This document shows positions 1-64,000 of a stretch of DNA of 64,000 bases, in pieces. The translations under genes were made by a program, and so were the position numbers. The notes under the pieces are model-generated. The model was not told the origin of the DNA and made no database searches. It was given only the letters and a program-made list of their open reading frames with translations. Source of the stretch: an uncultured Gammaproteobacteria bacterium (GTDB taxonomy: Bacteria > Patescibacteriota > Patescibacteriia > UBA9570 > XYC2-FULL-38-9); contig CAYFNF010000001.1 in the NCBI GenBank assembly GCA_964344485.1, positions 122,115 to 186,114 on the forward strand. The letters are read 5' to 3'. Numbering within the stretch: the stretch's first letter is position 1; each line of letters begins with the position of its first letter.

Positions 1-271
1 GCAGCACATGTCGTACCTCGCCCGCTACTGGCAGGAGCTCGTTCCAGGAGGTGAACCAAGAGCACAGAACGACGACAGCGACGGAGCTAGCGACGACGAC
101 CCGGAGGGTGACCCGACCCCCCAGCCGCGTGACGACGACAGCGCACCAAGTGCGACCACCTCGGTCACACTCGTGTTCTCAGCACCGGACGAGACCGACC
201 ACGGTCCAAGCGACCACGCAGGTGGACAGCGCAGCAGCGCACCGCGCGCCAGGCTACACCTGGTGAAGTGA
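1..271 (+). CDS. 3' end of a high-GC ORF running in from upstream, with an acidic low-complexity tail (D/E/P/S-rich); partial
   Basis: Frame +2 is open from the window edge to the stop at 269-271. GC is high, unlike the following region. Followed by the hairpin gcatcg-gcaa-cgatgc plus T8. Confidence 0.3.
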   Translation, partial: QHMSYLARYWQELVPGGEPRAQNDDSDGASDDDPEGDPTPQPRDDDSAPSATTSVTLVFSAPDETDHGPSDHAGGQRSSAPRARLHLVK

Positions 272-295
272 CGCCCCGCTCACAACTCGGAGGAT

Positions 296-322
296 GCATC
301 GGCAACGATGCGATTTTTTTTA
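296..322 (+). terminator. Rho-independent terminator
   Basis: Hairpin gcatcggcaacgatgc followed by T8. Confidence 0.6.
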
Positions 323-323
323 C

Positions 324-346
324 AAAAAATCCCCGGAAGCCCGGGG
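324..346 (-). terminator. Rho-independent terminator for the lysine-rich gene on the minus strand
   Basis: On the minus strand: ccccgggcttccgggg hairpin followed by TTTTTT. Confidence 0.6.
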
Positions 347-373
347 ATGGAATGTAATTCTTTGTAGGCGGCG

Positions 374-1063
374 TTATTGTAGCGACGTAATGTCCGCAAT
401 CTTCTCTACTACAGTTGAAGATGAGGCAGAGATCTGTTCAGTGATTGTAGAGATATACGGAATTTGCTCTGCAACATATTGCATGGGTGAAGCTGTGCCA
501 GTAACATTATATAAGCTCAACATCGCAATAGACCAATAGGTGACTCCGAGAATAACTAGTGAGAAGAATACTGTTGAGAGATAGATCTCTCCAACACTTA
601 CCAAGAATGGGACTTTTTTTGGTGCTTCATCTACAGGCTCGATGATAGGCTCAACTTCAATCTGCTCCTTTACCACCGGCGCGGTCTTCAGTTTTGACGT
701 TTCCTTGATTTTCTTATTCTTGATCTCGATCTCTGTGATGGTTGCTGCTTCTGGTGGTGTTGCAGCTGCAGTAATTGTCGTCTCTGCTTCTTGGATTGTA
801 ATTTTGCTTGTAACTTTCTTCTTAGCTGCAGGTTTCTTCGCGCGTGTTGTCTTCTTTGTCGGTTTTTTCTTAGCTGTTTTCTTTGTGGTGGTGCGCTTTT
901 TCGTTACTTTCTTCTTAGCTGCAGGTTTCTTCGCAGTTGTTTTGCGTTTTACAGTTTTCTTCTTTGTTGTCGTCTTTTTTTTACTTGCAGGTTTCTTCTT
1001 ACTCGCGGTTTTTGGTTTGCGAGCAGCCGAAGTTTTTTTCTTTGTATTCTTTTTTGTTGCCAT
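374..1063 (-). CDS. Histone H1-like / AlgP-like lysine-rich protein (AKKKP, KKKTTT repeats) with a C-terminal hydrophobic transmembrane segment
   Basis: Start MATKKNTKKK is preceded by AGGAGG 8 nt upstream. About 130 aa are K/A/T/P repeats, followed by an acidic/Thr linker and one or two predicted TM helices (VPFLVSVGEIYLSTVFFSLVILGVTYW). Confidence 0.7.
   Translation of the reverse strand: MATKKNTKKKTSAARKPKTASKKKPASKKKTTTKKKTVKRKTTAKKPAAKKKVTKKRTTTKKTAKKKPTKKTTRAKKPAAKKKVTSKITIQEAETTITAAATPPEAATITEIEIKNKKIKETSKLKTAPVVKEQIEVEPIIEPVDEAPKKVPFLVSVGEIYLSTVFFSLVILGVTYWSIAMLSLYNVTGTASPMQYVAEQIPYISTITEQISASSSTVVEKIADITSLQ
815..990. repeat. Intragenic tandem repeat (unit about 84 nt) encoding repeated TAKKPAAKKKVTKKRTTTKK blocks
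   Basis: Near-identical strings 'ctttcttcttagctgcaggtttcttcgc' at about 821 and 905. These cause the spurious + strand ORFs 642..1094 and 791..1099. Confidence 0.6.
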
Positions 1064-1158
1064 AGAGAGTTCCTCCTTTTTAAGTACAAAATAAAATGAG
1101 TGTTTCAAACGTTCACACGTCGTTACTCACTGTACCGTATTTTCGTGTTGTCTGCAAA

Positions 1159-3351: not shown

Positions 3352-3422
3352 AGTCGGCTTATTGTATCATATCAGCGCGGTGATGGAAATGATCTGAGCG
3401 TCATAAACAGTATAAAAACGGG

Positions 3423-3492
3423 TTGACATATATATGGTGTGTGTCAGTGTAGGAAAACAACGAACTGTGAGGTTACAAGAGGGGAAAGGAGG
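3423..3492 (+). promoter_or_regulatory. Candidate sigma70 -35 box (TTGACA at 3423-3428) plus strong SD (GGAGGTG) serving the high-GC ORF
   Basis: Perfect TTGACA. The -10 is unclear. aaaGGAGGTGgtcc precedes the ATG at 3499. Confidence 0.35.
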
Positions 3493-3498
3493 TGGTCC

Positions 3499-3942
3499 AT
3501 GAGGACCATGAACCTGGCTGTCGACCCCAGGATCCAGAATGCGTTCATGCGTGCGGCCATGCACGCGGTTCGGCATCACGTGATCCAGGCCACGAGCGCG
3601 CACAAGGAGGCGTTCGACACGCCCGCGTTCCAGGGCACGCTGATGCGCGTGGTGTTGAGTCCGACGAACCGGAAGTCCGAGCGGCGGATCGACCGGTGGA
3701 GCATGACGTTCTGGATCGAGGACGTCGGGCAGAGCCGTGACCAGATCATCGAGTCGGTCGTGGTAGCGCTCGAGAACATGGACATGTTCTGCTACGTGGG
3801 CAAGCGGGGTGTCGCCAACCCCGTTCCCACGGCGCGGGTGATGTTCATGGCCAAGATCCCGGCACGCGAGGGCTTCCAGCTCTTCCAGCGCACCTGCGAG
3901 TGCGGCGCCGTGCGTACGGCATCGGATCCGGGCCTGCTCTAG
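3499..3942 (+). CDS. Hypothetical protein, 147 aa, high GC (compositionally foreign)
   Basis: Starts MRTMNLAVD with a strong SD. GC is much higher than the flanks. No recognisable motif. Confidence 0.55.
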   Translation: MRTMNLAVDPRIQNAFMRAAMHAVRHHVIQATSAHKEAFDTPAFQGTLMRVVLSPTNRKSERRIDRWSMTFWIEDVGQSRDQIIESVVVALENMDMFCYVGKRGVANPVPTARVMFMAKIPAREGFQLFQRTCECGAVRTASDPGLL

Positions 3943-4004
3943 CGCAGAAGACCCACGGAGGAAGGGTTCTTTTTTATTTATCGAAAAAACTCGTCCTCGT
4001 ACGT

Positions 4005-4027
4005 TCAGGCGCCTGAGAAGTTTTTTA
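4005..4027. terminator. Bidirectional palindromic terminator between convergent genes
   Basis: 12-nt perfect palindrome tcaggcgcctga followed by T6. An A-run precedes it. Confidence 0.5.
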
Positions 4028-4879
4028 TGAAGTAAAAACTTTTTTTATACGATTGCGGATTTTCTCTGCACGTTTCTTGTCACGGCTGACAGTGAGGTGG
4101 GTGCGGCCAGGTTGCTCTACAATCTCCTGCAATTGATCAGGATCAAACTGTGATAGATCAGTGACTGATTCATAGACTTCGTCCATTAGGCCTTTTATAT
4201 ACTTGGGCATTGCAGTTTCAAAGATGTAATCTCCAATCACGACCACATAGTAGTTATCTTCGAACTCCTTTATAGGTGTAATGCTCACGCTAACGTTGTC
4301 TCCAGCAATGCATTGAGGCGTCAGGGAGTCTAGAAAAGACTCTGTCCCACCCACATGGTACAAATGCATGTTGTGCTGCTTGTATGCATCATTCAGTGCT
4401 TGCTCAGCGTTTGTACGTATCAACTGAAACCAGCAGTGGTCTACGTAGACATACGAGTTTGTATCTTTGTGTTCCTCTGTTGCGTAATACAGGATCACGA
4501 CGATAAGCGCGTGCCACCAAAAGTTGTCCATTGCGACCGGAGTGTCTAAGGTAAATGTTTTACTTTCTCCCTCTTTTAGTAGAATCGTGGCTGATGCTGC
4601 GCCTTGATCAAAGTAGTTCTGCTGCAGCACATTCGTGAAGTTTAGTAAGTTATAGATCCAGGAGCCGTCAATAGAGATCAGCTTTCCCTCTTTTACCAGA
4701 ACGCGCTGGTCTGTGAGTTTGTGAATTAAATTATAGAATCCCTGCAATGACATTCCTTTCCTATATCGCTTACTAAAGAAGCCGTAGAGATCCTTTACTG
4801 TCAGTCGTGGCTTATGTGCGAGGATGTCTAACACAATCGCAGTAGGGGAGGAGTCCGGTGATTTTGGGTCAGGAATCAT
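4025..4879 (-). CDS. Hypothetical protein with a winged-helix-like N-terminus (possible transcriptional regulator)
   Basis: The tracked ORF 4025..5530 is chimeric: its first roughly 217 codons are the antisense shadow of the high-GC HAD gene. Low-GC coding begins at MIPDPKSPDSS (ATG complement at 4877-4879). Confidence 0.5.
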   Translation of the reverse strand: MIPDPKSPDSSPTAIVLDILAHKPRLTVKDLYGFFSKRYRKGMSLQGFYNLIHKLTDQRVLVKEGKLISIDGSWIYNLLNFTNVLQQNYFDQGAASATILLKEGESKTFTLDTPVAMDNFWWHALIVVILYYATEEHKDTNSYVYVDHCWFQLIRTNAEQALNDAYKQHNMHLYHVGGTESFLDSLTPQCIAGDNVSVSITPIKEFEDNYYVVVIGDYIFETAMPKYIKGLMDEVYESVTDLSQFDPDQLQEIVEQPGRTHLTVSRDKKRAEKIRNRIKKVFTS

Positions 4880-4999
4880 AGTCAAGTAAAACTTTAAGAT
4901 TTTAAACATTTTAAATAAATATTGAAAATTTGTCAAGAGCACGATACACTCTGCTGTTCTCAGTTCGGAATGGACCGGATTGAGTGAGCAGGAGGAGTC

Positions 5000-5629
5000 A
5001 TGTTCTTTCACATTCTGCAGGCGTTCGTGGAGCTGGTCCGTGATGTGATCCGCAAACCCGTGGAGTTCATTCACGTAGAGATGAACTGGTCGGTGCTGAA
5101 CCCGCTGGTGTGGCTGCCGCATACTCTGTCTCCGGACATGACCATCTCTTCGCTGAGCGAGCTGGACGCGCAAGCGCTGGTGGATCTCGGGTACGAAGCA
5201 GTGATCATTGACTACGACGGCGTGATTGTGGACTACCACACCGAGGAGCCACCCGCGCCCGTGGTCGTGGAAGCGCTGCAGCGGTTGTCCAAGCACTTGC
5301 GCGTGCGAATTCTGTCGAACCGCCGCGGGAAGCTGCTGCAGTCGCTGCACGATGCGCTCCCTCAGTTCCCGGTAGTCCGCTCGTGTAAGATGAAGCCACA
5401 CAAGGAACCGTACCTGACCGCAGCAAAGACCTTGGGCGTAGAGATCACCAAGACGGTGTTGATCGAGGACCGGCTCGCCACTGGGATCGCGGGAGGTAAC
5501 CGCGTGGGGATGTACACGGTGTGGATGCATCCATCGCTGGGCCGTGATCGAGAGCCTTGGAACGTCTGGCTCTATCGCTTGGTTGAGGAGAAGCTACTCT
5601 CCTTGTACAACACGCTGCGTTTGACCTGA
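5000..5629 (+). CDS. HAD-superfamily IIIA phosphatase, YqeG-like; high GC
   Basis: Motifs VIIDYDGVI (DxD nucleophile) and CKMKPHKEPYLTAAKTLGVE...VLIEDRLATGIAGGNRVGMYTVW. GGAGG is 8 nt upstream of the ATG. Confidence 0.7.
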   Translation: MFFHILQAFVELVRDVIRKPVEFIHVEMNWSVLNPLVWLPHTLSPDMTISSLSELDAQALVDLGYEAVIIDYDGVIVDYHTEEPPAPVVVEALQRLSKHLRVRILSNRRGKLLQSLHDALPQFPVVRSCKMKPHKEPYLTAAKTLGVEITKTVLIEDRLATGIAGGNRVGMYTVWMHPSLGRDREPWNVWLYRLVEEKLLSLYNTLRLT

Positions 5630-5753
5630 AAAACCAAGCGTTTTTTTATCACCATCGTAATGGCCGCGCGTTTATTCATGATAGTTCGGCCCTTGATTTT
5701 TCAGTGATTTTTTGATACAATGACAGAGATAACAAGGTGATAAAGATATAGAT

Positions 5754-6209
5754 ATGGGTCGATGGCCAAAAAGACACTCCACGGAGCGACAAAGCACGCA
5801 TATCCGGCGACAGACCGCTGGAGAGTATGATCCGGATGAAAAACGTAGACGTCGAAGGCGACGTCCGCAATATGTACCTGATGACATACCCGCAGACCCA
5901 AGAAAGAGAACCGAAGAGCAGCGCCAGCGGATGCGCTGGGCTATGGATGCGTACGATGAAGAAGATTCAGATGCGCGAGAGAGGAGACGGCAAGCTGAAC
6001 GAGATGCTGATTGGGAGCCGCATCTACATACACAAGAACCAGTAGCATACGTACACCCTGATGATGACTCGCAGCAAGCTCGACAACAACGGGCAATGGC
6101 AGAGCGAGCAAGAAGGCAAGAAGAGGTGCAACAAGGCGGGCCAAGACAAGACGATCCAAGATCACGGACACGACGAAGAAGGCAGTCACGCACACGCAGA
6201 GCAGCATAG
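5754..6209 (+). CDS. Hypothetical highly charged Arg/Glu/Asp-rich protein
   Basis: 151 aa of R/E/D/Q low complexity with an AAGGTGA SD-like site upstream. It competes with the antisense Cys/Ser-rich ORF 5672..6304. The coding strand is uncertain. Confidence 0.35.
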   Translation: MGRWPKRHSTERQSTHIRRQTAGEYDPDEKRRRRRRRPQYVPDDIPADPRKRTEEQRQRMRWAMDAYDEEDSDARERRRQAERDADWEPHLHTQEPVAYVHPDDDSQQARQQRAMAERARRQEEVQQGGPRQDDPRSRTRRRRQSRTRRAA

Positions 6210-6323
6210 TATTTTTTCATAGTAATGAGTTGACAGTTGAAAGACCGTATGGTAGGGTAATTTTGGTTTAAAATTGTTGGCATGTAACGCAATACAGTCA
6301 ACAATTAATACAATAAAAAACAG

Positions 6324-6542: not shown

Positions 6543-6545
6543 TCA

Positions 6546-8523: not shown

Positions 8524-8607
8524 GCCGGAGTGGTGGAACTGGTAGACACGCAGCGTTCAGGTCGCTGTCCGCATTAGCGGGTGAGAGTTCAACTCTCTCC
8601 TCCGGCA
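8524..8607 (+). tRNA. tRNA-Leu (anticodon CAG)
   Basis: Acceptor stem GCCGGAG/CTCCGGC. D-arm GGTAGAC. Anticodon loop tTCAGg. Long variable arm. T-arm GGTTCAACTC. CCA is not encoded. Confidence 0.8.
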
Positions 8608-8688
8608 CAGATAAACTTTTTTATCGCGAATGCATCTACGCGGAATTGATCCGTAAGATGTGTTGGCACTTAAATCGTAAATTGTTAT

Positions 8689-27731: not shown

Positions 27732-27750
27732 CAGGCAAGAGCCTGTTTTA
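27732..27750 (+). terminator. Rho-independent terminator after elp3
   Basis: caggc-aaga-gcctg followed by TTTT. Confidence 0.6.
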
Positions 27751-27754
27751 TAGT

Positions 27755-27778
27755 AAAAAAAATGAGGACAGGGTCCTC
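27755..27778 (-). terminator. Rho-independent terminator of the high-GC LOG-family gene
   Basis: On the minus strand: GAGGAC-CCT-GTCCTC hairpin followed by T8, overlapping the stop codon by 1 nt. Confidence 0.7.
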
Positions 27779-28545
27779 TAGACGCTAGCGCTTCGCAACT
27801 GCCCGGTCAGGGCACGTTCCGCCTTGGCGCGGTTGCCGTTGGCGTCCAGCACATGGGCGACCGCTTCGGCGGGCTCGTCCGTGAACAGGACATGGAACTG
27901 CTGCTTGCTCAGGGTCTGCCAGTCGCACATGTGCGACAGGTCGGCTCTCACGCACTTCCAGTGATCCTTGCCCAGCAGAGCCAGGGGGATGCGTCGCCCG
28001 ATCTCCTGACCGAGCTGCAGCTTCTGGATGAACATGAACAGCTCGAGTCGGGTCCCGATGCCTCCGGGCGGGAAGATTCCTCCGTCCGCCAGGATCTCCA
28101 TGATCTCGATTCGGGTGCCGAAGAGCTGGTTCGCGATGTAGATGTCCACTGCGGACGGGTCCATCATCTCGAACACTTGTCCATCGGCTTGCCGGATGAC
28201 GATCCGCACTCCGATCAGAGGCTGGGTGTGCGCGTGGACACGGTGCGTCCTGAAGGAGGTCTGCACGATCTCGGGCAGGCCGGGGCAGTGTCCGGAGATC
28301 TGAGCCGCTCCTTGCTCGCCGAGCAGGCGACCGGTCTCGACCATGTGGTCAGCGTACTGCGCATGCAGGCGCGGGGCCTCATCAGCCGAACGGGCGGATC
28401 CGAAGATGCCGATGACCGGCCCGATGTGTGGCTTGAGGAAGTCCGCGTATGCTCGCGTCGTCATGCCGAACTGGTAGACACCTTGCTGCAGCAGCGCCAG
28501 TTGAGCGACCGCTCGTGGGTCGCTGCTCCAAAACTCTCTCGTCAT
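27778..28545 (-). CDS. LOG-family protein (TIGR00730 Rossmann-fold nucleotide-binding; cytokinin riboside 5'-monophosphate phosphoribohydrolase-like); high GC
   Basis: PGGIGTRLELF matches the LOG PGGxGTxxE motif. Start MTREFW has GGAGGAG 8 nt upstream. The + strand ORF 27853..28605 is its antisense shadow. Confidence 0.65.
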   Translation of the reverse strand: MTREFWSSDPRAVAQLALLQQGVYQFGMTTRAYADFLKPHIGPVIGIFGSARSADEAPRLHAQYADHMVETGRLLGEQGAAQISGHCPGLPEIVQTSFRTHRVHAHTQPLIGVRIVIRQADGQVFEMMDPSAVDIYIANQLFGTRIEIMEILADGGIFPPGGIGTRLELFMFIQKLQLGQEIGRRIPLALLGKDHWKCVRADLSHMCDWQTLSKQQFHVLFTDEPAEAVAHVLDANGNRAKAERALTGQLRSASV

Positions 28546-28701
28546 GTTAGGTGCTCCTCCGTCGATTCTGCGACGAAACGATTTCTGGTTATCAACGTGG
28601 GTTGATGCCGATACTGTATGCTCTTTTCTGCTACTTGTCAAAGCGTGAGTGAATGCATGAAATGTGGTATACTACCACGCGTAAATAGTAGTAATAGTTA
28701 T

Positions 28702-33089: not shown

Positions 33090-33118
33090 TTGACAAAAGC
33101 GAAAAAGTGCGCTAGTAT
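33090..33118 (+). promoter_or_regulatory. Near-consensus sigma70 promoter (TTGACA - 17 nt - TAGTAT)
   Basis: TTGACA at 33090-33095, 17-nt spacer, TAGTAT at 33113-33118. A roughly 200-nt structured leader follows before the high-GC small ORF. Confidence 0.6.
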
Positions 33119-33319
33119 GATCTGTTCTTTATATCCAAGAACTGGAACTGTCACGAGGAGAGAGTGACAATCCAACAACAGGGACGACCCAGAGACGCCT
33201 GCTAAGTATTAAATAAGACGCCGAATTTTTTGCAGCCTTATTTAGTAGCTAGCAGCCGTCCTGGACAAGTCGGGAATCGCCTACGGGCGTGAACCGCACG
33301 GTCTGCATCGGAGGTACTC

Positions 33320-33505
33320 ATGACCCTGACCCTGTCCCTGTCCGCCCTCGCCCTCACCGCCCTGCTGCTCTCGGTCCGCTCGCGCCGCATCGCGCGCGAG
33401 ACCGCCGCCGCGGAGTTCGAGGCCCGCTACGCCGTCGTCTACGACCGCCCGGTCACGATCGACACCGAGCGCTGGCTGACCGCCGGCATGGCCACGAGCA
33501 AGTAG
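33320..33505 (+). CDS. Small hypothetical membrane protein (61 aa), high GC
   Basis: GGAGG is 7 nt upstream of the ATG. N-terminal TM helix LTLSLSALALTALLLSV. The alternative overlapping ORF 33289..33633 is Arg-rich and less likely. Confidence 0.4.
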   Translation: MTLTLSLSALALTALLLSVRSRRIARETAAAEFEARYAVVYDRPVTIDTERWLTAGMATSK

Positions 33506-33622
33506 GAGCGCCTGAGGCGCAGAGGAGCGCCCGGCCAGGGTTCATCGCGACGCATACGCTCGCGACCTGGCCGCTCCTTCCCTGCAGTGTTACCCAACAC
33601 TTCAGAGAAGGAGTACAAAAAG

Positions 33623-33645
33623 ACCGCGTTTAAAGCGCGGTTTTA
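33623..33645. terminator. Bidirectional rho-independent terminator
   Basis: accgcg-tttaaag-cgcggt flanked by A5 and T4. Confidence 0.55.
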
Positions 33646-51055: not shown

Positions 51056-51130
51056 GGAGTTTTTTTGCGTAGTCAGACCTTGACTTTTTTTATTGTCAGT
51101 GATATACAAGTGGCTTGAGGACGAAGGGAG

Positions 51131-51499
51131 ATGTACTGTATGCTGGACCGACAGTTGATTCAGCAGTTCGTAGAGAAGGGTTTCCGGTGGACCGTGGTGG
51201 TCACCCAGGACAGCGGTGGTCTCGAACCCGAGGCCGTGGCTGCGGTGGCCAACGCCAGGCGCATGGGATGCGCGGTCGGGTGCGTATTCGTGGGTGTCTC
51301 CGCGGAGGCGCTCGAAGCCGAGACTCGGGACTTCGGTCTGGCGCTCGCGCGCGCGTGCGACGAGGCCGAGCCGGTGGTCGAAGACAGCATCACCATGAGT
51401 GAGTTCGGCACGGACCGCAAGTTCACCCTGGTGATCTTCCCGCCGATCAATGCCGAGATCCAGGCCTGTTCGGATCGCGAGCCCGTAGAGCGCCCCTGA
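51131..51499 (+). CDS. Hypothetical protein, 122 aa, high GC (compositionally foreign)
   Basis: AAGGGAG SD upstream of the ATG at 51131 (or 51140). GC far above the flanks. No recognisable motif. Confidence 0.45.
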   Translation: MYCMLDRQLIQQFVEKGFRWTVVVTQDSGGLEPEAVAAVANARRMGCAVGCVFVGVSAEALEAETRDFGLALARACDEAEPVVEDSITMSEFGTDRKFTLVIFPPINAEIQACSDREPVERP

Positions 51500-51523
51500 T
51501 CTACCAACGCCTCATTTTTTTAT

Positions 51524-54446: not shown

Positions 54447-54453
54447 AATCATA

Positions 54454-58764: not shown

Positions 58765-58796
58765 GCAGCCTTCTGGAACGAAGGCTGCTTTATTTT
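58765..58796 (+). terminator. Strong hairpin plus U-tract upstream of the high-GC GCS2-like gene (terminator, insulator or attenuator)
   Basis: gcagccttc-tggaac-gaaggctgc (9-bp stem) followed by TTTATTTT. No gene lies between ndk's own terminator and this element. Confidence 0.5.
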
Positions 58797-58907
58797 GTGG
58801 CTGATGTAGGCAGCGGTATATACTGCTCTCTACATTGGCTCCGAAATCAAGACGATTCGCAAGCCATACCATCACATCGACAGCAGCAGACGAGGAATAA
58901 GGAGGAG

Positions 58908-59777
58908 ATGAAACCGACTGCACTAATCCCGTATGAGGGAGTCGATGGGCCCGCCGCGTTCTTCGCTGCCTTGGAGCAGCGTTTCGAAAGAAACAGAAGG
59001 AACGGATACGGCACCGCGTTCGGCGCGGAGATCGAAGGACACCTGCACGTGGGGGACGACCCCATGCCCGCCCTGCGGGGACCTGAATTCCTTCAGCTCC
59101 GTGCGGAGCAATGCTCACCCGAGCGTCGCGCTCACAACGGATCGGATTCACTGTTCGCACCTGAGGTGCACCTCGGAAGGATCGAAGCACTCACGGTACC
59201 AGCACCGGACGTCGACGGCATGATGGCCGAAGTCACGCTCCGACTGCAGGAGATCGACGAGACTGCTGCCCGCATGGGTCTGAACTTCCGCTGTGATCCG
59301 ATCATCCCGATTCCGGATGACCATGAAACCGTGGTCCTCCCTGAACTGCTCGACTCCGAGCGCTACCAAGCACTGTCACCCCAAGCCGCTCGCGCGGCAC
59401 TCTCGGTCGCTGCACTGCAGTTCCAGAGGGGATGCCAGTCCATGGATCAAGCGCTCGGAATGTACGAAGCAGTCCGGCGTGCGTTGCCGGACCTACGTTT
59501 CATGGGAGATCTCACGGATGGTCGCCGACAGCGGCTCTACGAACTCTGGGTCGACCCAGAGATGGCTAGACCGCCGGTACTCCGGAATCGCATGCAAGTC
59601 TACGCGCACGCGAGACGCTACGGCTGGGTGAACGCGCCCAAGGGGTGGTGGTCCGACGTGAGGATCAACATGATGAACGGGACCGTGGAACTACGGTCAC
59701 CCGACGCATCGCGTGACCTCGCGCACATTCGGACTCTGGGCGAAGCCTTCGCTCACATCACCGCACCCTACGCGTAA
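58908..59777 (+). CDS. GCS2/YbdK-like carboxylate-amine ligase (short form, 289 aa); high GC
   Basis: AGGAGG precedes the ATG. TAFGAEIEGHLHVGD resembles YbdK FTLGIELEMQVV. GTVELRSPDAS resembles YbdK GTVEVRVMDTP. Confidence 0.5.
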   Translation: MKPTALIPYEGVDGPAAFFAALEQRFERNRRNGYGTAFGAEIEGHLHVGDDPMPALRGPEFLQLRAEQCSPERRAHNGSDSLFAPEVHLGRIEALTVPAPDVDGMMAEVTLRLQEIDETAARMGLNFRCDPIIPIPDDHETVVLPELLDSERYQALSPQAARAALSVAALQFQRGCQSMDQALGMYEAVRRALPDLRFMGDLTDGRRQRLYELWVDPEMARPPVLRNRMQVYAHARRYGWVNAPKGWWSDVRINMMNGTVELRSPDASRDLAHIRTLGEAFAHITAPYA

Positions 59778-59783
59778 ACTCCG

Positions 59784-59818
59784 AGGGGTTCTGGCCCAGC
59801 CCCTCAACCACTTTTTTC
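59784..59818 (+). terminator. Rho-independent terminator after the GCS2-like gene
   Basis: gagggg-ttctggcccag-cccctc followed by T6. Confidence 0.6.
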
Positions 59819-60025
59819 TAACTAATTCGTTTACATATAGTTGTACAACAGCACACTACGGTTATGAACAGTCAATTACAGTCTCACAGTTCAATAGAGA
59901 GTACCAATCGGTCATTCTGCGCCCGACAGTCTTTCTCATGGCAATACTATTACTACTATTCCCTAGTTTTTGGAAGGCTGTTTAGTGTGCCATAGAGATT
60001 TTCTTTATTACGTATCGCGATAAAA

Positions 60026-60052
60026 CCCTTCCAAGAACTGGAAGGGTTTTTT
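60026..60052 (+). promoter_or_regulatory. Conserved leader hairpin plus U-tract (copy 1) upstream of 460-aa paralog A
   Basis: cccttcca-agaac-tggaaggg plus T6, followed by the conserved block tcttgagaacg...cgacaacc. It lies about 135 nt before the ATG. Confidence 0.5.
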
Positions 60053-60187
60053 CTTGTCTACAGATTTTTCAGCGCGATTAGTTCATCGCAATAAAAGATC
60101 TTGAGATAAGGATTCACGAGTCTTGAGAACGCTCTTCACAAACAAAGCGACAACAACCAACAACCACAGCAACACACGAGGTACAAG

Positions 60188-61570
60188 ATGAACATTCTGG
60201 ACACGCACATCGAGCAGATGGAGTCCCTGGACCTGGGCGGGTTGGAGACCCGCAACATCCAGATGTCCCTGAGTCCGTTCGGGATTCTTCCCGGATACCG
60301 TACGGTCTACCCCCAGGTGGTCGTGGAAGCGCTGGCGAGCATCTTCACGGAGTTCAACGCAGCGTTCGCGCCCCTGATCGAGGCCAACCGCGAGTGGGAG
60401 ACCGACTACCAGTACTGCAACAACGGTGCTGGCCCGGTGAACTGGATCGTGCAGGTGGACATGGTCGGTCTGCCGCAACCGTTCCTGGAGCAGGCTGCGA
60501 GCATGCCCATGCCTGCCGTACGAGCGCTCCTGCGCAACCGCATCTTCGAGATGGAGAATTCCTGGGCCATGTACCAGTTCCTGGAACGGGCCTTCTCTCG
60601 AGATGGACGCGATAGCTTCTACAAGCAGCGAGTTCGTGCTCTACTCGACGCGCTGCGAGCGAAGTTCGGGCGTCCGATCGCCCTACTCGCGGTCACGCAC
60701 GAGAAGTGGCACGCCATGCGCGCGATCGAGTTCGGCAAGCAAGAGGGCGAGCCGCTCACGGACGAAGAGGTGCGCGAGCTGACCGGCTTCGATCGGCTCT
60801 TCGGCCCCGACGACTTCCGCGCGTACCTGGCTGCGAACCACGGCAAGTGCGACTACCTGCTCTACGCGCGCACCAGCGACCCGATCGAGAAGCTCAAGAA
60901 GCCGAACATCGCAGTCGACCACCCGCTGCTCGCGGACCCGGAGATGCGACGCCTGATCAAGGCGCACGCGATCACGTTCAACGTGGACAATCCGGAGTGG
61001 CCGACCGGCAGTTCGCGGCGGATCAACGACACCAAGTGGTACATGCCGCCCATGGGCATGGCGTACCCGGTCCGTAGAGATCAGGACTACCTGCATGCAG
61101 CGTTTCTGGAACACCTGTTCCGCGGCCGCGCGTACGATCAGTACGACGATGAGCGTCTGAGCTCGGACTTCGAAGCGTACCTGTGCCTGCAAGGAGTCGA
61201 CATCGCAGCGGTTCATGCGGGCCAGGTGACGATGCGGGCCAAACCCGCTCAGGGCGCGTTCGGATGCTATGGACACGTGGTCGGTCCACTGACCAGGGGC
61301 AAGATCCGCTCCAAGATCCGACGGAACCTGCAGAAGCGCGGACCGTACATGCTGCAGCCTGAGATGCGTACCCCCATGGTCCAGGACCAGGCAAGTGGTG
61401 CTCGGTATCTGTACATCGATCGGAACTTCTTCGGAATGCTGGACGGTGCACCCGTCTTCCTCGGAGGATTCCGTTCCATGATGCCGGTGGATGCGCACGA
61501 AGCGCACAAGGGTCGCAATCACGGGAACCACCACACGGTACACGCCGAGGTGATCTCGGAAGAGATGTAG
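60188..61570 (+). CDS. Uncharacterised 460-aa protein, paralog A; high GC
   Basis: Conserved blocks shared with paralog B: AANREWETDYQYCNNG, PIALLAVTHEKWHA, GPYMLQPEM, FLGGFRSMMPV-AHEA-K-RNHG. Confidence 0.6.
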   Translation: MNILDTHIEQMESLDLGGLETRNIQMSLSPFGILPGYRTVYPQVVVEALASIFTEFNAAFAPLIEANREWETDYQYCNNGAGPVNWIVQVDMVGLPQPFLEQAASMPMPAVRALLRNRIFEMENSWAMYQFLERAFSRDGRDSFYKQRVRALLDALRAKFGRPIALLAVTHEKWHAMRAIEFGKQEGEPLTDEEVRELTGFDRLFGPDDFRAYLAANHGKCDYLLYARTSDPIEKLKKPNIAVDHPLLADPEMRRLIKAHAITFNVDNPEWPTGSSRRINDTKWYMPPMGMAYPVRRDQDYLHAAFLEHLFRGRAYDQYDDERLSSDFEAYLCLQGVDIAAVHAGQVTMRAKPAQGAFGCYGHVVGPLTRGKIRSKIRRNLQKRGPYMLQPEMRTPMVQDQASGARYLYIDRNFFGMLDGAPVFLGGFRSMMPVDAHEAHKGRNHGNHHTVHAEVISEEM

Positions 61571-61728
61571 CACGCCGCACTCTCCAAGCGAGAAGTCCGG
61601 CTTTTTTTTGCCAACAATAGCATTTTCTTCATGAAAAAGCCTTTATTTTTAAACCGAAATATGATGTAGCGCAATAAACGCTTTTTTTCTAGCATTTTCG
61701 CCATTTACTATGTTTTTTTTGCTAATAC

Positions 61729-61756
61729 TTGACTTTTTTTCAAAAACCTTTATGAT
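61729..61756 (+). promoter_or_regulatory. Sigma70-like promoter (TTGACT - 16 nt - TATGAT) about 370 nt upstream of paralog B
   Basis: TTGACT at 61729-61734 and TATGAT at 61751-61756. Implies a long 5' leader. Confidence 0.45.
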
Positions 61757-61938
61757 ATGTTAAATTCAACCTAGGAAAAATGGACTTACAACGCCTTTCA
61801 ACAATGCATCAAAAACGAATTAGCTGGTTTTTTAGCCCTCTAATTCTCATTGAGGTGATTTATTTTTTCGGAATTATTCACCGATTGGAAGGCCGCTTGA
61901 CGTGTACTAGATAACAAACAACTATCGTTTCACAGCAA

Positions 61939-61963
61939 CCCTTCCAATCCTGGAAGGGTTTTT
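61939..61963 (+). promoter_or_regulatory. Conserved leader hairpin plus U-tract (copy 2) upstream of 460-aa paralog B
   Basis: cccttcca-atcc-tggaaggg plus T5, followed by cttgtct and tcttgagaacg blocks shared with copy 1. Confidence 0.5.
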
Positions 61964-62125
61964 GCTTGTCTTGAGATGTTTCCATACGACACTACAGCCG
62001 TATTGAAACATCTTAAGAGGAGTGCAAACAACTCTTGAGAACGGTTCATTGACAGCAAAACCGACAACCTCACACCCGCCTACTACACCCGCCCATCTGT
62101 TCCCTCCTGCTCATCAGAGTGAAAG

Positions 62126-63508
62126 ATGCCTACCTTCGACACGCACTTCGACACTACCCCCTCTCTCTCGCTGGGTTCGGTGCTCGACCTCGCCATCCAG
62201 TCCACCATGGGCCCGTTCCAGGTGCTGCCTGGCTTCCACGCCACCTACCCGCCGGTCGTGCTGCAGGCGCTCGCCAACCTCTACCTCGAGTACAACGCGG
62301 CCTTCTCCCCGCTGATCGCGGCCAACCGCGAGTGGGAGACCGACTACCAGTACTGCAACAACGGCCACGGTCCGACCAACTTCGGTGTCCAGATCGACAT
62401 GGTCGGCCTGCCCCAGAGCTTCCTGGACGCGGTCGCAGACCTGCCCGAGCCCGTGGTGCGAGAGCTCCTGCGCTACAAGATCTTCGAGATCGAGAACAGC
62501 CTGGCCATGTACCAGCTCCTGATGCACCTGTTCCCGCGCACCGGAAGTCCGCACACCTTCTTCGACACCCAGTTCCGGGCAGTCCTGGAAGACCTGCGTC
62601 GCCGTCACGGCAAGCCGATCGCGCTGCTCGCGGTCACGCAGGAGAAGTGGCACGCCATACGCCAGACCGAGTTCGGCCTCACCGGCGACCAGCCGCTCTC
62701 CAGCGACGAGGTCCGACGCCTCACCGGCTTCGACCACTTCCTCGGTCCGGACGACTTCCACGCGCACCTCGCGGCGAACCACGGCGACTGCCAGTTCCTG
62801 CTCTACGCCCGCACTAGCCACCCGGTGGCCAAGCTCCGGAAGCCGGCCACGGCTGTGGAACACCCCCTGCTCAGCTTCCCCGAGATGCGGCGCATGATCA
62901 AGGCCCTGGCCATCACGTACAACGTGGATGATCCGGACTGGTCAACTGGAGACCCTCGCCACATCAACGATAGCAAGGGGTACATGCCGCCTATGCGCAT
63001 GGCGTTCCCGCTCGACAGCGAGACCGACTACCTCACGCTGGGGCTCTGCAAGCACCTCTCCCGCGGTCAGCCCTGCCAGACGTACACCGGGCAGCACTTC
63101 ACCGACAGCTTCGTCCAGTTCCTGCGCTCGCACGGCGTGGACCCGGCTGCGGTGGCCAGCGGAGAGATCATGCTGCGGGCCAAGCCCACGATGTGCTCCT
63201 ACGGCTGCTACGGTCACGTGTCTGGCGCGGTCCCGAACTCCAAGTTCCGCGGAGAAGTCCGCCGCAACATGCGCCTGCGTGGCCCGTACATGCTCCAGCC
63301 TGAGATGAAGACACCCAAGATCGTCAACGCCGACGATGGGCAGATGTACACGTACATCGATCGAGTCTTCTTCGGGATGGTCAACGGCGAGCCGTCGTTC
63401 CTCGGTGGGTTCCGGTCCATGATGCCGGTGCACGCCCACGAGGCGCTCAAGCGCCGCAACCACGGGAGCAACGAAACCGTCTGGGCCGAGGTCCGCTCGG
63501 AGTCCTAG
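62126..63508 (+). CDS. Uncharacterised 460-aa protein, paralog B; high GC
   Basis: Same length as paralog A, roughly 55-60% identical to it by eye, with the same conserved blocks. Confidence 0.6.
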   Translation: MPTFDTHFDTTPSLSLGSVLDLAIQSTMGPFQVLPGFHATYPPVVLQALANLYLEYNAAFSPLIAANREWETDYQYCNNGHGPTNFGVQIDMVGLPQSFLDAVADLPEPVVRELLRYKIFEIENSLAMYQLLMHLFPRTGSPHTFFDTQFRAVLEDLRRRHGKPIALLAVTQEKWHAIRQTEFGLTGDQPLSSDEVRRLTGFDHFLGPDDFHAHLAANHGDCQFLLYARTSHPVAKLRKPATAVEHPLLSFPEMRRMIKALAITYNVDDPDWSTGDPRHINDSKGYMPPMRMAFPLDSETDYLTLGLCKHLSRGQPCQTYTGQHFTDSFVQFLRSHGVDPAAVASGEIMLRAKPTMCSYGCYGHVSGAVPNSKFRGEVRRNMRLRGPYMLQPEMKTPKIVNADDGQMYTYIDRVFFGMVNGEPSFLGGFRSMMPVHAHEALKRRNHGSNETVWAEVRSES

Positions 63509-63513
63509 AACCA

Positions 63514-63548
63514 CCGCGCCTCATCAGCGAGGTCGCGGCCCTTTTTTT
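63514..63548 (+). terminator. Rho-independent terminator after paralog B
   Basis: An imperfect GC-rich hairpin (ccgcgcctc...gaggtcgcgg) followed by T7. Confidence 0.5.
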
Positions 63549-63637
63549 ACTAGAACGCAGATACTCATCTGTTCAAGCATTGAACGATTGAGCTATCTGT
63601 TCTATTATAAGAACATTGTTTTTTTGCAAAAACTCGT

Positions 63638-64000
63638 ATGAAAAGCAACAGTGTAAAGGATATTCTTCCTTTAACAAAGAAATTCATCACCATTAAATCA
63701 AATCCAGAGAACGCTAAGGAGCTAGCGCAAATTTTAAATTTGTCATTAGCGCAACTACGAGGGTTTACCATTGAACGCTTTGAGCGCAATGGAGCGAAGA
63801 GCGCTTTAGTCTATAATACAAAAAAAAGACCTAAGAAATTCAAAGCACTACTGAACGGTCACTTGGATATCATTCCTGGCAAGGATTTTCAACACAAGCC
63901 ACAGGTCAAGGGTGATCGACTATACGGTGTGGGCTCGATGGACATGAAAGGGAACGTTGCGGCAATGATTGCGGTGTTTAAAGACATGGCTCGAACTGTT
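63638..64000 (+). CDS. M20-family metallopeptidase (DapE/ArgE-like), 5' partial; runs off the window end
   Basis: MKSNSVKDILPL...LNGHLDIIPG...GVGSMDMKGNVAAMIAV, the M20 His and Asp metal-binding motifs. Not in the ORF track because no stop lies within the window. Confidence 0.6.
   Translation, partial: MKSNSVKDILPLTKKFITIKSNPENAKELAQILNLSLAQLRGFTIERFERNGAKSALVYNTKKRPKKFKALLNGHLDIIPGKDFQHKPQVKGDRLYGVGSMDMKGNVAAMIAVFKDMARTV

What the first reader, a model, noticed from the sequence alone, without database searches (positions are those of the whole stretch)
1..64000. About ten sharply bounded high-GC ORFs with SD sites, some with their own terminators, scattered through an AT-rich backbone
The discrete ORFs are:
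- 1..271
- 3499..3942
- 5000..5629 (YqeG-like HAD phosphatase)
- 27778..28545 (LOG family)
- 33320..33505
- 51131..51499
- 58908..59777
- 60188..61570
- 62126..63508
The R/E-rich ORF 5754..6209 is possibly another.

These run at visibly around 60-67% GC, while the surrounding housekeeping genes are around 40-45%. The boundaries are abrupt. Nearly every such ORF has a textbook GGAGG-type SD 7-8 nt from the ATG. The LOG-family, GCS2-like and 460-aa paralog genes end in strong hairpin/T-run terminators, but several others (the 5000..5629 HAD gene, 33320..33505) have no terminator or only a weak one.

This pattern fits either multiple recent horizontal acquisitions from a high-GC donor, placed as single-gene cassettes, or an assembly/binning chimera.
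Basis: seen in the sequence. Interest (0 to 1): 0.7.

Follow-up and report, generated by a model that had tools for sequence, protein, structure and literature searches.

The report
Persistent GC-rich, SD-led gene class
The high-GC genes are real and contiguous, but several of them are not recent imports: they belong to a long-lived second "style" of gene (GC-rich, with a strong ribosome-binding site and its own terminator) that sits at the same chromosomal sites in related ultra-small (CPR) bacteria whose ordinary genes lack such ribosome-binding sites.

Summary
Observation confirmed. Eight complete ORFs (B, C, E, F, G, H, I, J) and one truncated ORF (A) have 59-73% GC and GC3 0.67-1.0. Backbone genes have 40-48% GC and GC3 0.30-0.48. 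Boundaries fall within about 25-90 nt of the ORF ends. D (5754-6209) is not of this class.

The organism is a Kerfeldbacteria-like Parcubacterium (CPR). Chimera is rejected, because the same pattern recurs in independent assemblies.

"Recent HGT cassettes" fails for E (LOG) and for the I/J ligases.
- Orthologs sit in the same chromosomal slots in relatives that have diverged past synonymous saturation.
- Those orthologs are also GC3-rich (0.68-0.90), while about 20 co-linear neighbours are not.
- The ligase->M20 pair is conserved in 20 CPR loci; only the ligase is GC-elevated, and the elevated members do not form one clade.
- I and J are an in-place tandem duplication that includes their AT-rich leader.

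New finding: backbone genes lack SD sites and the GC-rich genes carry strong ones. In relatives the odds ratio is 44 (p about 9e-9). Where GC-rich, the ligase also has a strong terminator.

G is a lineage-specific insertion, absent from three relatives. B, C, F and A are unresolved.

Best reading: a selectively maintained, separately translated gene class. The mechanism is inferred. Public annotation mis-calls these genes as antisense ORFs.

The parts
1..321 (+). Island A: 3' end of a GC-rich ORF (stop at 269-271) that begins before the window, plus a hairpin/T8 terminator at 296-321. The reading frame is uncertain.
   Evidence: 66% GC; terminator located.
3423..3975 (+). Island B: promoter-like TTGACA region (3423-3450), SD AAAGGAGG (3485-3492), ORF 3499-3942 (147 aa, unknown function, GC3 0.91), terminator 3947-3975.
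   Evidence: There is no Pfam hit. Public annotation calls it from GTG 3439.
4989..5647 (+). Island C: SD CAGGAGGAG (4989-4997), ORF 5000-5629 (209-aa HAD/PGP-phosphatase-like, GC3 0.79), followed by only a T-run (5636-5647).
   Evidence: Pfam PF00702 at 37.1 bits and PF09419; GC; SD -10.3 kcal/mol. The public annotation instead extends the antisense ORF 4025-5530 through it.
27755..28561 (-). Island E: LOG-family gene 27778-28545 on the minus strand (255 aa, GC3 about 0.82). SD at 28553-28561, terminator at 27755-27777. It lies in the conserved rSAM-LOG-SHMT slot.
   Evidence: Pfam PF03641 at 41.1 bits. Syntenic GC-rich orthologs in L077, L078 and L079/L080. Synonymous saturation. Public annotation holds the antisense ORF 27853-28605(+) instead.
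33090..33645 (+). Island F: promoter-like TTGACA-N17-TAGTAT (33090-33121), a 190-nt leader, SD (33309-33314), ORF 33320-33505 (61 aa, one transmembrane helix, GC3 1.00), a structured GC-rich 3' region, and a terminator at 33622-33645. It lies in the variable FolD-YchF slot.
   Evidence: In L077 the slot holds a different GC-rich 83-aa transmembrane ORF, and in L078 it is empty.
51080..51521 (+). Island G: promoter-like TTGACT-N17-GATATA (51080-51106), ORF 51131-51499 (122 aa, unknown function, GC3 0.82), T-run at 51510-51521. It is a lineage-specific insertion.
   Evidence: The slot is empty in L010, L011 and L082. The exact protein is on record from the 335-kb NCBI contig, with a >=90% identical relative in an ENA assembly.
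58899..59817 (+). Island H: SD AAGGAGGAG (58899-58907), ORF 58908-59777 (289 aa, short YbdK/GCS2-type carboxylate-amine ligase, GC3 0.69), terminator 59783-59817.
   Evidence: Family profile against PDB YbdK 1r8g (E = 2e-20) and 1tt4. AF2 pLDDT 92.6. Top Foldseek hits 1tt4 and 1r8g. 86 homologues found.
59970..61609 (+). Island I unit: AT-rich leader (box 59970-59978, hairpin/T-run 60022-60052, GAGAAC-N17-CGACAAC 60125-60154, C/A-rich tract, SD 60177-60182), ORF 60188-61570 (460 aa, GspS/YgiC-like ATP-grasp ligase, GC3 0.82), terminator 61574-61609.
61885..63548 (+). Island J unit: tandem paralog of I (period about 1940 nt). Leader box 61885-61893, hairpin 61937-61963, GAGAAC-N19-CGACAAC 62037-62068, ORF 62126-63508 (460 aa, 57% identical to I, GC3 0.90), terminator 63514-63548.
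   Evidence: Public annotation holds the antisense ORFs 62114-62863(-) and 62942-63514(-) instead.
5754..6209 (+). ORF D (R/E-rich, 151 aa). It is NOT a member of the class: GC3 is 0.39, there is no SD, and its GC comes from the amino-acid composition.

Best explanation
The window is a chromosomal stretch of a Kerfeldbacteria-like Parcubacterium (CPR/Patescibacteria) that holds two kinds of gene.

The backbone is about 45% GC with GC3 about 0.43. Its genes lack Shine-Dalgarno sites and are often operonic or nearly leaderless.

Interspersed is a minority class of self-contained units. Each has its own promoter-like site, a strong SD and a GC-rich ORF with GC3 0.7-1.0. Most end in a hairpin/T-run terminator, which is weak in C and G. 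This class is evolutionarily persistent and gene-specific.

Shown:
- LOG (E) and the acid-amine ligases (I/J) have orthologs in the same chromosomal slots in relatives that have diverged beyond synonymous saturation.
- Those orthologs are also GC-rich, and mostly SD-led.
- Co-inherited neighbours interleaved with them (M20 peptidases, GATase, SHMT, rSAM) stay backbone-like.
- H is a third ligase in the same cluster. It has no demonstrated ortholog in the relatives; the GC-rich GCS2 gene in L082 is only a functional parallel.

Inferred: a gene-specific force holds the high GC at a stationary level, so it is not a leftover of recent transfer.

Most likely mechanism (inferred, about 0.3-0.35 on its own): selection on the mRNA and its translation.
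- Default ribosomes of this lineage start SD-independently on A/U-rich, unstructured 5' regions. Many Parcubacteria even lack the anti-SD.
- A GC-rich, structured message with a strong SD and a protective 3' hairpin would form a separately controlled, possibly long-lived, translation class.
- In the ligase/peptidase cluster this would let synthetases (GC-rich, SD-led) and hydrolases (backbone style) be expressed reciprocally.

Some members of the class (G certainly; B, C, F and A possibly) are lineage-specific additions and may well have entered by transfer.
For: Identity of the organism and synteny:
- GatA is 100% identical to a protein from a 335-kb NCBI contig. The nearest named relatives are Kerfeldbacteria.
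- About 37 kb is co-linear with L077, L078 and L011.

Persistence:
- LOG GC3 is 0.83 / 0.88 / 0.68 / 0.90 in four lineages, against 0.43-0.7 for flanking orthologs.
- LOG divergence has the same rank order as SHMT and YchF.
- The same-codon fraction at conserved residues equals the codon-usage expectation: 0.54 vs 0.53, 0.52 vs 0.47, 0.48 vs 0.52, 0.49 vs 0.47.

Ligase module:
- In L082, GCS2 (GC3 0.90), the 378-aa ATP-grasp-like protein (0.82) and the ligase (0.72) are interleaved with M20a (0.40), M20b (0.33) and GATase (0.36), next to NDK-RR-GatA.
- The ligase->M20 pair occurs in 20 loci, with only the ligase elevated.
- Elevated ligases are not monophyletic, and ligase and M20 identities co-vary (r = 0.64).
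- I and J are an in-place tandem duplication that includes the AT-rich leader.

Two styles:
- SD energy averages -7.8 kcal/mol for island genes and -0.4 for backbone genes.
- In the conservative test, 7 of 8 islands and 4 of 46 backbone genes have a strong SD.
- In relatives, using the sources' own gene calls, 9 of 14 GC-rich genes and 1 of 68 backbone genes have a strong SD.
- Pooled odds ratio 44, p = 8.5e-9. The composition control gives p = 3e-7.
- Strong terminators follow only the GC-elevated ligases (Spearman 0.88).

Other points:
- Not a decaying import: GC3 is at or above what GC1+2 predict in 19 of 23 genes.
- Not expression bias: pilin, NDK and SecG have GC3 0.30-0.39. G- and C-ending codons are used alike, and the amino-acid composition is shifted.
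- Literature: the anti-SD is undetected in about half of Parcubacteria (PMC9297842). SD-blind ribosomes with an SD-led exception are known in Flavobacterium (PMC9976891).
Against: - The mechanism is untested. There are no expression data, and no 16S 3' end or bS21 gene is available for this genome.
- The package GC + SD + terminator + amino-acid shift is exactly what a gene from an ordinary high-GC, SD-using bacterium would carry, so a foreign ultimate origin remains plausible.
- G is absent from three relatives. F's positional counterpart in L077 is not detectably homologous.
- B, C, F and G have no traced orthologs.
- H's GC3 is below what its GC1+2 predict (-11), as expected for an ameliorating import.
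- The persistence evidence rests on two gene families and a handful of genomes.
- The correlations across loci are not corrected for phylogeny.
- Selection strong enough to hold GC3 near 0.9 across a whole ORF would be unusual in small-population symbionts.
Confidence: 0.5

Rival explanations
1. Horizontal transfer, old and new. The islands are genes imported from GC-rich, SD-using donors (other Patescibacteria or host bacteria) into variable slots between conserved genes. The syntenic cases are ancient imports that ameliorate unusually slowly, or alleles that are repeatedly re-imported into the same slots.
For: - The foreign-like package: GC at all three codon positions, Arg over Lys, SD sites, own terminators.
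- G is inserted relative to three relatives.
- The slots are variable. FolD-YchF holds different genes and an IS200/605 transposase in L077. LOG-rSAM holds two extra GC-rich ORFs in L078.
- Single-gene transfer is reported to be common among Patescibacteria, at up to 13% of genome length (PMC12455944). About 10-12% of this window is island.
- H shows an amelioration-like GC3 deficit.
Against: - Synonymous sites are saturated between LOG orthologs and between I/J and the L082 ligase, yet GC3 stays at 0.7-0.9.
- LOG is less similar between lineages than the backbone genes are, not more, as repeated import from a shared donor would give.
- The ligase family is CPR-specific, and its elevated members are not a clade.
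- Replacement would have to be ORF-precise next to an unreplaced M20 gene in at least 9 loci.
- The H-I and I-J spacers are 35-39% GC.
- I and J duplicated in place together with their AT-rich leader.
- No hits in viral or plasmid collections.
Confidence: 0.3
2. A local neutral process rather than selection. Candidates are GC-biased gene conversion at recombination-prone genes, or a self-reinforcing mutational regime in which stable GC-rich duplex is protected from deamination. Either would keep certain segments GC-rich.
For: - G- and C-ending codons are both favoured, and the amino-acid composition is shifted, as general GC pressure would produce.
- The effect persists past synonymous saturation.
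- I and J are paralogs that could once have converted each other.
Against: - The plateaus stop within tens of nucleotides of the ORF ends.
- Adjacent M20 genes about 100 bp away are unaffected, and long spacers are 35-39% GC. Conversion tracts or regional mutation would not respect ORF boundaries.
- This does not explain the coupling with SD sites and terminators.
- LOG has no paralog in the window.
Confidence: 0.1
3. Ordinary translational selection. The islands are simply the most highly expressed genes and use optimal G/C-ending codons.
For: SD sites and terminators are typical of strongly expressed monocistronic genes. A published HGT screen flagged ribosomal proteins and tuf as 'transferred' in Patescibacteria, which hints at atypical composition in expressed genes.
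Against: - Likely abundant products have backbone GC3: pilin 0.36, NDK 0.39, SecG 0.30.
- L21 in L006 is only slightly raised, at 0.65 against about 0.58.
- All G/C-ending codons are used, including GCG, CGG, GGG and TCG.
- Arg replaces Lys, which is not tRNA-type codon optimisation.
Confidence: 0.05
4. Assembly or binning chimera.
For: None beyond the compositional jump itself.
Against: - There are ten gene-precise junctions inside one contig.
- Island and backbone proteins are recorded from the same 335-kb contig.
- The same pattern appears at the same loci in independent assemblies from NCBI, ENA, JGI and Logan.
Confidence: 0.01

Closest known systems
Compositional genomic islands and single-gene HGT in Patescibacteria (PMC12455944)
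   Same: Atypical GC and codon usage. Location between conserved genes. About 10% of the sequence. At least one true lineage-specific insertion (G).
   Different: Several members are syntenic and equally atypical in relatives that have diverged past synonymous saturation. There are no mobility genes, tRNA or att flanks. Each unit is a single ORF with native-looking AT-rich flanks. The gene families involved are CPR-specific.
SD-blind ribosomes of Bacteroidia with an SD-led exception (rpsU/bS21 autoregulation in Flavobacterium johnsoniae; PMC7797042, PMC9976891, PMC13000453)
   Same: Most genes in the genome lack SD sites, while a few carry strong ones. This suggests translation by a distinct ribosome state.
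   Different: Here the SD-led set comprises roughly one gene in six in this window. They are metabolic or accessory genes, and they are also strongly GC-rich and terminator-bounded. Neither the anti-SD status nor bS21 could be examined. No experimental link exists.
Anti-SD loss in a Parcubacteria subgroup (PMC9297842)
   Same: The same broad lineage. It is consistent with the SD-less backbone seen here.
   Different: In the passages read, that paper describes the rRNA and does not mention a residual class of SD-led, GC-rich genes. If this genome lacks the anti-SD, the conserved strong SDs would be unexplained.
Glutathione-type two-step synthesis (GCS2/YbdK carboxylate-amine ligase plus GspS/YgiC or glutathione-synthetase-like ATP-grasp ligase)
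   Different: I/J and H have no Pfam hit. H is about 80 residues shorter than YbdK. Substrates are unknown.

Membership tests
Recently acquired horizontal gene / genomic island | Composition atypical for the host genome | tested here: met
   GC 59-73% against 45%, and GC3 0.67-1.0 against 0.30-0.48. Codon and amino-acid usage are shifted.
Recently acquired horizontal gene / genomic island | Absent from the same site in related genomes | tested here: not met
   Not met for E: LOG is in the same slot in L077, L078 and L079/L080. Not met for the I/J ligases: the ligase module lies next to NDK in L082. Met only for G. Not testable for B, C and A.
Recently acquired horizontal gene / genomic island | Not yet ameliorated because recent: orthologs should be close to a donor or show unsaturated synonymous sites | tested here: not met
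   The same-codon fraction equals the codon-usage expectation for LOG and for I/J against L082. The best database hit to I is only 60% identical.
Recently acquired horizontal gene / genomic island | Mobility signatures (integrase or transposase, tRNA or att flanks, direct repeats) | tested here: not met
   No shared flanking repeats. The only tRNA (8524-8608) is not adjacent to an island. No viral or plasmid relatives.
Integron-type gene cassettes | Array of promoterless ORFs separated by attC sites next to an integrase | tested here: not met
   The islands are scattered, have their own promoter-like sites and terminators, and share no attC-like repeat.
Assembly/binning chimera | Junctions unsupported outside this one assembly | tested here: not met
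   The same ORF-bounded plateaus occur at orthologous loci in independent assemblies. Read mapping was not possible.
SD-blind translation with SD-led exceptions (Bacteroidia type) | Most genes lack SD sites | tested here: met
   The backbone median SD energy is about 0 to -1 kcal/mol in the window and in five relatives.
SD-blind translation with SD-led exceptions (Bacteroidia type) | Anti-SD present but sequestered by bS21/bS18/bS6 (or absent); SD-led genes translated by a special ribosome state | not testable with these tools
   No fetched sequence holds a 16S rRNA or rpsU gene. There are no expression data.
LOG family (island E) | Pfam PF03641 above the gathering score, and the PGGxGTxxE motif | tested here: met
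   41.1 bits against a cut-off of 27. The motif PGGIGTRLE is visible in the translation.
HAD phosphatase (island C) | Pfam HAD models above cut-off, and motif I DxDx(T/V) | tested here: met
   PF00702 37.1 bits against 26.4, and PF09419 31.2 against 20.4. DYDGV is visible in the translation.
GCS2/YbdK carboxylate-amine ligase (island H) | Sequence-profile and fold match to YbdK | tested here: met
   Profile against 1r8g E = 2e-20 and 1tt4 E = 2e-21. AF2 pLDDT 92.6. Top Foldseek hits are 1tt4 and 1r8g, TM 0.63-0.66. A single-sequence Pfam scan found nothing.
Glutathionylspermidine synthetase / YgiC-type ATP-grasp ligase (islands I, J) | Fold match; Pfam GSP_synth hit; ATP-binding residues | tested here: inconclusive

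The most novel reading that the evidence does not exclude
Kerfeldbacteria-type Parcubacteria keep two translationally distinct gene classes in one chromosome. The first is an SD-less, mid-GC default class. The second is a selectively maintained GC-rich, SD-led, terminator-insulated class. A gene family can switch between the two during evolution: the ligase is operonic, SD-less and at backbone GC in about 37% GC genomes, but monocistronic, SD-led and GC-rich in about 45-50% GC genomes. The second class would be read only by a particular ribosome state (free anti-SD) or would encode unusually stable messages. Base composition itself would then work as a regulatory code.
Probability: 0.3. Interest if true: 0.85.

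Novelty: new variant of a known kind. Interest (0 to 1): 0.68.

Why it matters
1. Compositional outliers are routinely scored as horizontal transfer. Here several outliers are demonstrably old, syntenic and stationary. HGT estimates for CPR genomes that rest on composition may therefore be inflated, and a gene-specific force that keeps GC3 near 0.9 inside a 45% GC genome needs explaining.

2. The tight link between GC-richness, strong SD sites and terminators in a lineage whose ordinary genes lack SD sites points to a second translation regime in ultra-small bacteria. This can be tested directly with the 16S 3' end, bS21, metatranscriptomes and ribosome profiling.

3. There is a practical consequence. 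Gene callers trained on the backbone mis-call these genes as antisense shadow ORFs. Real enzymes (LOG, the GspS-like ligases, HAD) are therefore missing from public protein sets for this genome, and probably for many related MAGs.

Tried and rejected
- Exact look-ups of the window's proteins in the contig index failed. The source contig is not indexed.
- The GTDB-representative scan with LigA found nothing closer than 42% identity.
- Rfam at gathering threshold found nothing in the window. The permissive search over the I/J leaders gave only sub-threshold Phe_leader hits driven by the hairpin.
- tblastn of islands A-H against all fetched loci found orthologs only for E, plus a weak HAD match for C.
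- H shows only a marginal pairwise match to the L082 GCS2 and none to the 378-aa protein. The relationship became clear only with a family profile.
- PDB sequence searches with the ligase profile and with H alone found nothing useful.
- The ligase family is absent from IMG/VR and from PLSDB plasmids. The H-J region has no phage match.
- No 16S rRNA is present in any fetched sequence, so the anti-SD could not be checked.
- The supplements of PMC9297842 are not held.
- Literature searches for this two-class pattern in Parcubacteria or Patescibacteria found no description.
- Considered and rejected:
  - Integron cassettes: no attC sites and no array.
  - Expression-linked codon bias: pilin, NDK and SecG are ordinary.
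  - Transcription-coupled repair: the coding strand is not C-depleted.
  - Spread from one GC-rich donor clade: the elevated ligases are not monophyletic.

Full report

The window averages 46.6% GC. A 300-bp profile and a 90-nt scan give high-GC segments at 1-327, 3467-3987, 5015-5596, 27749-28584, 33230-33629, 51135-51521, 58869-59824, 60163-61613 and 62061-63575. All are 60-66% GC.

A greedy gene map shows two separate populations. Backbone genes have GC3 0.30-0.48. The island ORFs have GC3 0.67-1.00. I label them:
- A: 1-271
- B: 3499-3942
- C: 5000-5629
- E: 27778-28545, minus strand
- F: 33320-33505
- G: 51131-51499
- H: 58908-59777
- I: 60188-61570
- J: 62126-63508

D (5754-6209) has GC3 0.39. 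It owes its 55% GC to an Arg/Glu-rich composition and is not of this class.

The plateaus end within tens of nucleotides of the ORFs, so they take in only the short SD-bearing 5' UTR and the terminator stem.

2. WHAT THE BACKBONE IS

The large ORFs are ordinary bacterial housekeeping and pilus genes: PcrA, RNase J, MurD, iPGM, PilB/T/C/M/O, LigA, GatCA, FolD, SHMT, YchF, NDK, SecG and two ECF-type sigma factors.

GatA is 100% identical to a protein from a 335,404-bp NCBI contig. The next best named hits are Candidatus Kerfeldbacteria, at 61-66%. Kerfeldbacteria belong to the Parcubacteria group of the Patescibacteria.

About 37 kb of the window (19-58 kb) is co-linear with three loci from two related MAGs and with a Logan contig.

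3. CHIMERA IS EXCLUDED

G and H are on record from the same 335-kb contig as GatA. The same ORF-bounded GC plateaus appear at orthologous loci in independent NCBI, ENA, JGI and Logan assemblies. Read mapping could not be done.

4. WHAT THE ISLAND GENES ENCODE

- C is a HAD/PGP-type phosphatase and E is a LOG-family protein.
- I and J are 57% identical. They belong to an unannotated family with more than 270 members. Every member that carries a name comes from Patescibacteria.
- H has 86 distant homologues. Its family profile hits YbdK-type carboxylate-amine ligases (E = 2e-20). Its model (pLDDT 92.6) matches the same structures.
- H/I/J are therefore three ATP-dependent acid-amine ligases. This is plausibly a gamma-glutamyl-peptide (glutathione-like) pathway.
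- B, F, G and A have no annotation.

5. RECENT TRANSFER FAILS FOR SEVERAL ISLANDS

(a) LOG. Only five homologues are detectable, and the two that carry a name are from Patescibacteria.
- In L077 (GCA_043813585.1), L078 (GCA_042568075.1) and L079/L080 the gene lies in the same SHMT-LOG-radical-SAM slot.
- It is GC3-rich in all of them: 0.88, 0.68 and 0.90, against 0.83 in the window.
- About 20 co-linear orthologs have GC3 0.32-0.47 in the window and 0.50-0.73 in the relatives.
- LOG's pairwise identities (55/61/64%) have the same rank order as SHMT (71/73/76%) and YchF (71/73/79%).
- At conserved residues, the fraction of identical codons equals what codon usage alone predicts: 0.54/0.53, 0.52/0.47, 0.48/0.52, 0.49/0.47. 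Synonymous sites have therefore turned over completely, and the high GC3 is a stationary state.

(b) The ligases. In 20 CPR loci the ligase is followed directly by an M20 peptidase on the same strand.
- M20 always has backbone GC3 (0.24-0.56; 0.75 in the genuinely high-GC L062).
- The ligase is elevated only in genomes of about 40-50% GC. Examples: 0.88 vs 0.45, 0.73 vs 0.33, 0.68 vs 0.39.
- The elevated ligases are not each other's nearest relatives.
- Ligase and M20 identities co-vary (r = 0.64). L006 and L017 share 77% and 74% identity, with the ligase elevated in both.
- In L082, a 352-kb Kerfeldbacteria contig, the gene order is GATase - GCS2 - 378-aa ATP-grasp-like - M20 - ligase - M20, directly beside NDK-RR-GatA-GatC-LigA. 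This is the same neighbourhood as H/I/J in the window.
- In L082 the three ligase-type genes have GC3 0.90, 0.82 and 0.72. The interleaved hydrolases have 0.33-0.40. L032 shows the same arrangement.

(c) I and J are a tandem duplication with a period of about 1,940 nt.
- The unit includes the AT-rich leader (33 nt at 88% identity), the ORF (71-75%) and the terminator.
- An AT-rich-leader/GC-rich-ORF unit therefore duplicated in place.
- Both copies then diverged to 57% amino-acid identity while keeping GC3 0.82 and 0.90.

(d) Under amelioration, GC3 should fall below what GC1+2 predict. The backbone sits on the Muto-Osawa line (45 vs 45). In 19 of 23 GC-rich genes GC3 is at or above prediction (mean +7). 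H is the clear exception at -11. The regression equations are from Lawrence and Ochman 1997, quoted from my own knowledge.

(e) No mobile-element link was found. There are no shared flanking repeats and no relatives in IMG/VR, PLSDB or phage records.

6. WHAT DOES FIT TRANSFER

- G lies between two convergent genes that are separated by only 43, 1 and 6 bp in L010, L011 and L082.
- The FolD-YchF slot that holds F is empty in L078. In L077 it holds other genes, an IS200/605 transposase and a non-homologous GC-rich 83-aa membrane ORF.
- L078 has two extra GC-rich ORFs beside LOG.
- Single-gene exchange among Patescibacteria is documented (PMC12455944).
- The class therefore gains members, and a foreign ultimate origin is plausible.

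7. THE NEW FEATURE: TWO TRANSLATION STYLES

- Island genes have strong SD sites (mean duplex energy -7.8 kcal/mol). Backbone genes have none (mean -0.4). Backbone upstream regions are A/T-rich, often with a -10-like box just before the ATG.
- When every backbone gene is given its best SD over all starts in its first 60 codons, 4 of 46 reach -7 kcal/mol, against 7 of 8 islands.
- Random windows inside the GC-rich ORFs reach -7 only 4.8% of the time (p = 3e-7).
- With the sources' own gene calls in L082, L077, L078, L011 and L079, 9 of 14 GC-rich genes and 1 of 68 backbone genes have such SDs.
- In a different CPR lineage (L001), the three SD-led genes are the three most GC3-rich. In 37% GC L004 the ligase is SD-less, at backbone GC and operonic.
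- Pooled over relatives only: odds ratio 44, p = 8.5e-9.
- Every GC-elevated ligase is followed by a strong intrinsic terminator (12-17-bp stem). Most of the non-elevated ligases run almost straight into M20; a few with slight elevation also have a hairpin. The Spearman correlation between GC3 excess and spacer length is 0.88, not corrected for phylogeny.
- Codon usage shows general GC pressure. C3 is 0.44 and G3 is 0.39, AAG/GAG/CAG are preferred, and all G/C-ending codons are used. Arg replaces Lys (0.76 vs 0.44).
- Likely abundant products (pilin, NDK, SecG) are ordinary. This is not classical expression-linked bias.

8. INTERPRETATION

Shown: a persistent, gene-specific class of GC-rich, SD-led genes, most with their own terminators, inside an SD-less backbone. 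It is conserved at syntenic sites across Kerfeldbacteria-like genomes and recurs in other Parcubacteria.

Inferred: something holds their composition, because a neutral relic would have decayed.

The plateau is tied to the ORF. It spares neighbours 100 bp away and long 35-39% GC spacers. It also travels with SD sites and terminators. For these reasons I favour selection on the message and its translation over regional mutation or gene conversion.

Context from the literature:
- The anti-SD is undetected in about half of Parcubacteria (PMC9297842).
- Bacteroidia ribosomes are SD-blind, yet bS21-less ribosomes translate the SD-led rpsU gene (PMC9976891).

By analogy, a GC-rich, structured mRNA would be a poor substrate for SD-independent initiation. 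It would then depend on SD pairing, giving a separately switched class, possibly with long-lived messages.

In the ligase/peptidase cluster this would separate synthesis (GC-rich, SD-led ligases) from degradation (backbone-style M20 and GATase). This mechanism is untested. I give it about 0.3. I give about 0.75 to the narrower claim that E and I/J are old, maintained members of a class rather than recent imports.

9. A PRACTICAL BY-PRODUCT

The public protein collection holds antisense shadow ORFs instead of the real genes:
- 62114-62863(-) and 62942-63514(-) in place of ligase J.
- 27853-28605(+) in place of LOG.
- An over-extended 4025-5530(-) running through HAD gene C.

The true I, J, E and C proteins are absent. 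This probably explains why the class has gone unnoticed.

10. VERDICT

Chimera is rejected, and recent cassette-like acquisition is contradicted for at least three of the nine islands. I file this as a new variant of known kinds (compositional islands; SD-less genomes with SD-led exceptions), with an unexplained maintenance force.

Noticed in passing
window 62114-62863(-), 62942-63514(-), 27853-28605(+), 4025-5530(-), 3439-3942(+): The public protein collection for the source contig holds antisense shadow ORFs or over-extended ORFs in place of the true GC-rich genes (ligase J, LOG, HAD). The true I, J, E and C proteins are missing. Gene callers tuned to the backbone appear to mis-call this class systematically.
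   Followed up: yes
window 59970-60187 and 61885-62125: I and J share a conserved AT-rich leader of about 190 nt. The box TTGGAAGGC is complementary to the 5' arm of a strong hairpin/T-run (60022-60052; 61937-61963), which is terminator/antiterminator-like. The J antiterminator fold has z = -3.0. After that come TCTTGAGA repeats, GAGAAC-N17/19-CGACAAC (ECF-promoter-like), a C/A-rich tract and the SD. Rfam gives only sub-threshold Phe_leader hits. This is a candidate cis-regulatory element. Similar hairpins lie upstream of ligase homologues in other CPR loci.
   Followed up: partly
window 30588-31181(-) and 31308-32099(-): Two ECF-type sigma factor genes lie between SHMT and FolD. L077 has one at the corresponding place and L078 has none. 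A possible link to the GAGAAC...CGAC motif upstream of I and J was not tested.
   Followed up: no
window 54415-55095 (+): A low-GC (39%) SAM-methyltransferase ORF lies between LigA and GatC and overlaps the end of LigA. It is absent from that position in L010, L011 and L082. This is an insertion of the opposite compositional kind. The 575 bp between it and the true GatC start (about 55672) has no clear gene.
   Followed up: partly
window backbone gene starts (e.g. 1159-3351(-), 33790, 52443, 57983): Backbone genes lack SD sites. Many have a -10-like TAnnnT box only 5-12 nt before the ATG, which suggests leaderless or very short-leader mRNAs as the default in this organism.
   Followed up: partly
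window 8524-8608 (+): The only tRNA in the window is tRNA-Leu(CAG), which reads CUG. CUG makes up 55% of Leu codons in the islands but 16% in the backbone.
   Followed up: no
window 5672-6304 (both strands): The R/E-rich ORF D (5754-6209, +) and a 210-aa antisense ORF (5672-6304, -) compete for the same A-rich region (AT skew +0.3). Neither has a family match, and which one is real is unresolved.
   Followed up: partly
window 33506-33645: Downstream of the 61-aa ORF F lies a 115-nt GC-rich, strongly structured stretch (-29 kcal/mol over its first 60 nt) before the terminator. It could be a structured 3' UTR or a small RNA.
   Followed up: no
L077 5942-6388; L011 16109-18223; L023 11295-12620; L078 5690-6352, 11102-11773, 17040-17924: Relatives carry further GC-rich outlier genes of other kinds: a 704-aa unknown protein, a PD40 beta-propeller protein, a hexose dehydratase, PNP_UDP_1 and small ORFs. 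L077 also has an IS200/605 Y1 transposase in the FolD-YchF slot. The class is broader than the window's members.
   Followed up: partly
window 10705-14295 (+): A 1,196-aa ORF with only a weak CarboxypepD_reg match. It is probably a large surface protein of the backbone class.
   Followed up: no
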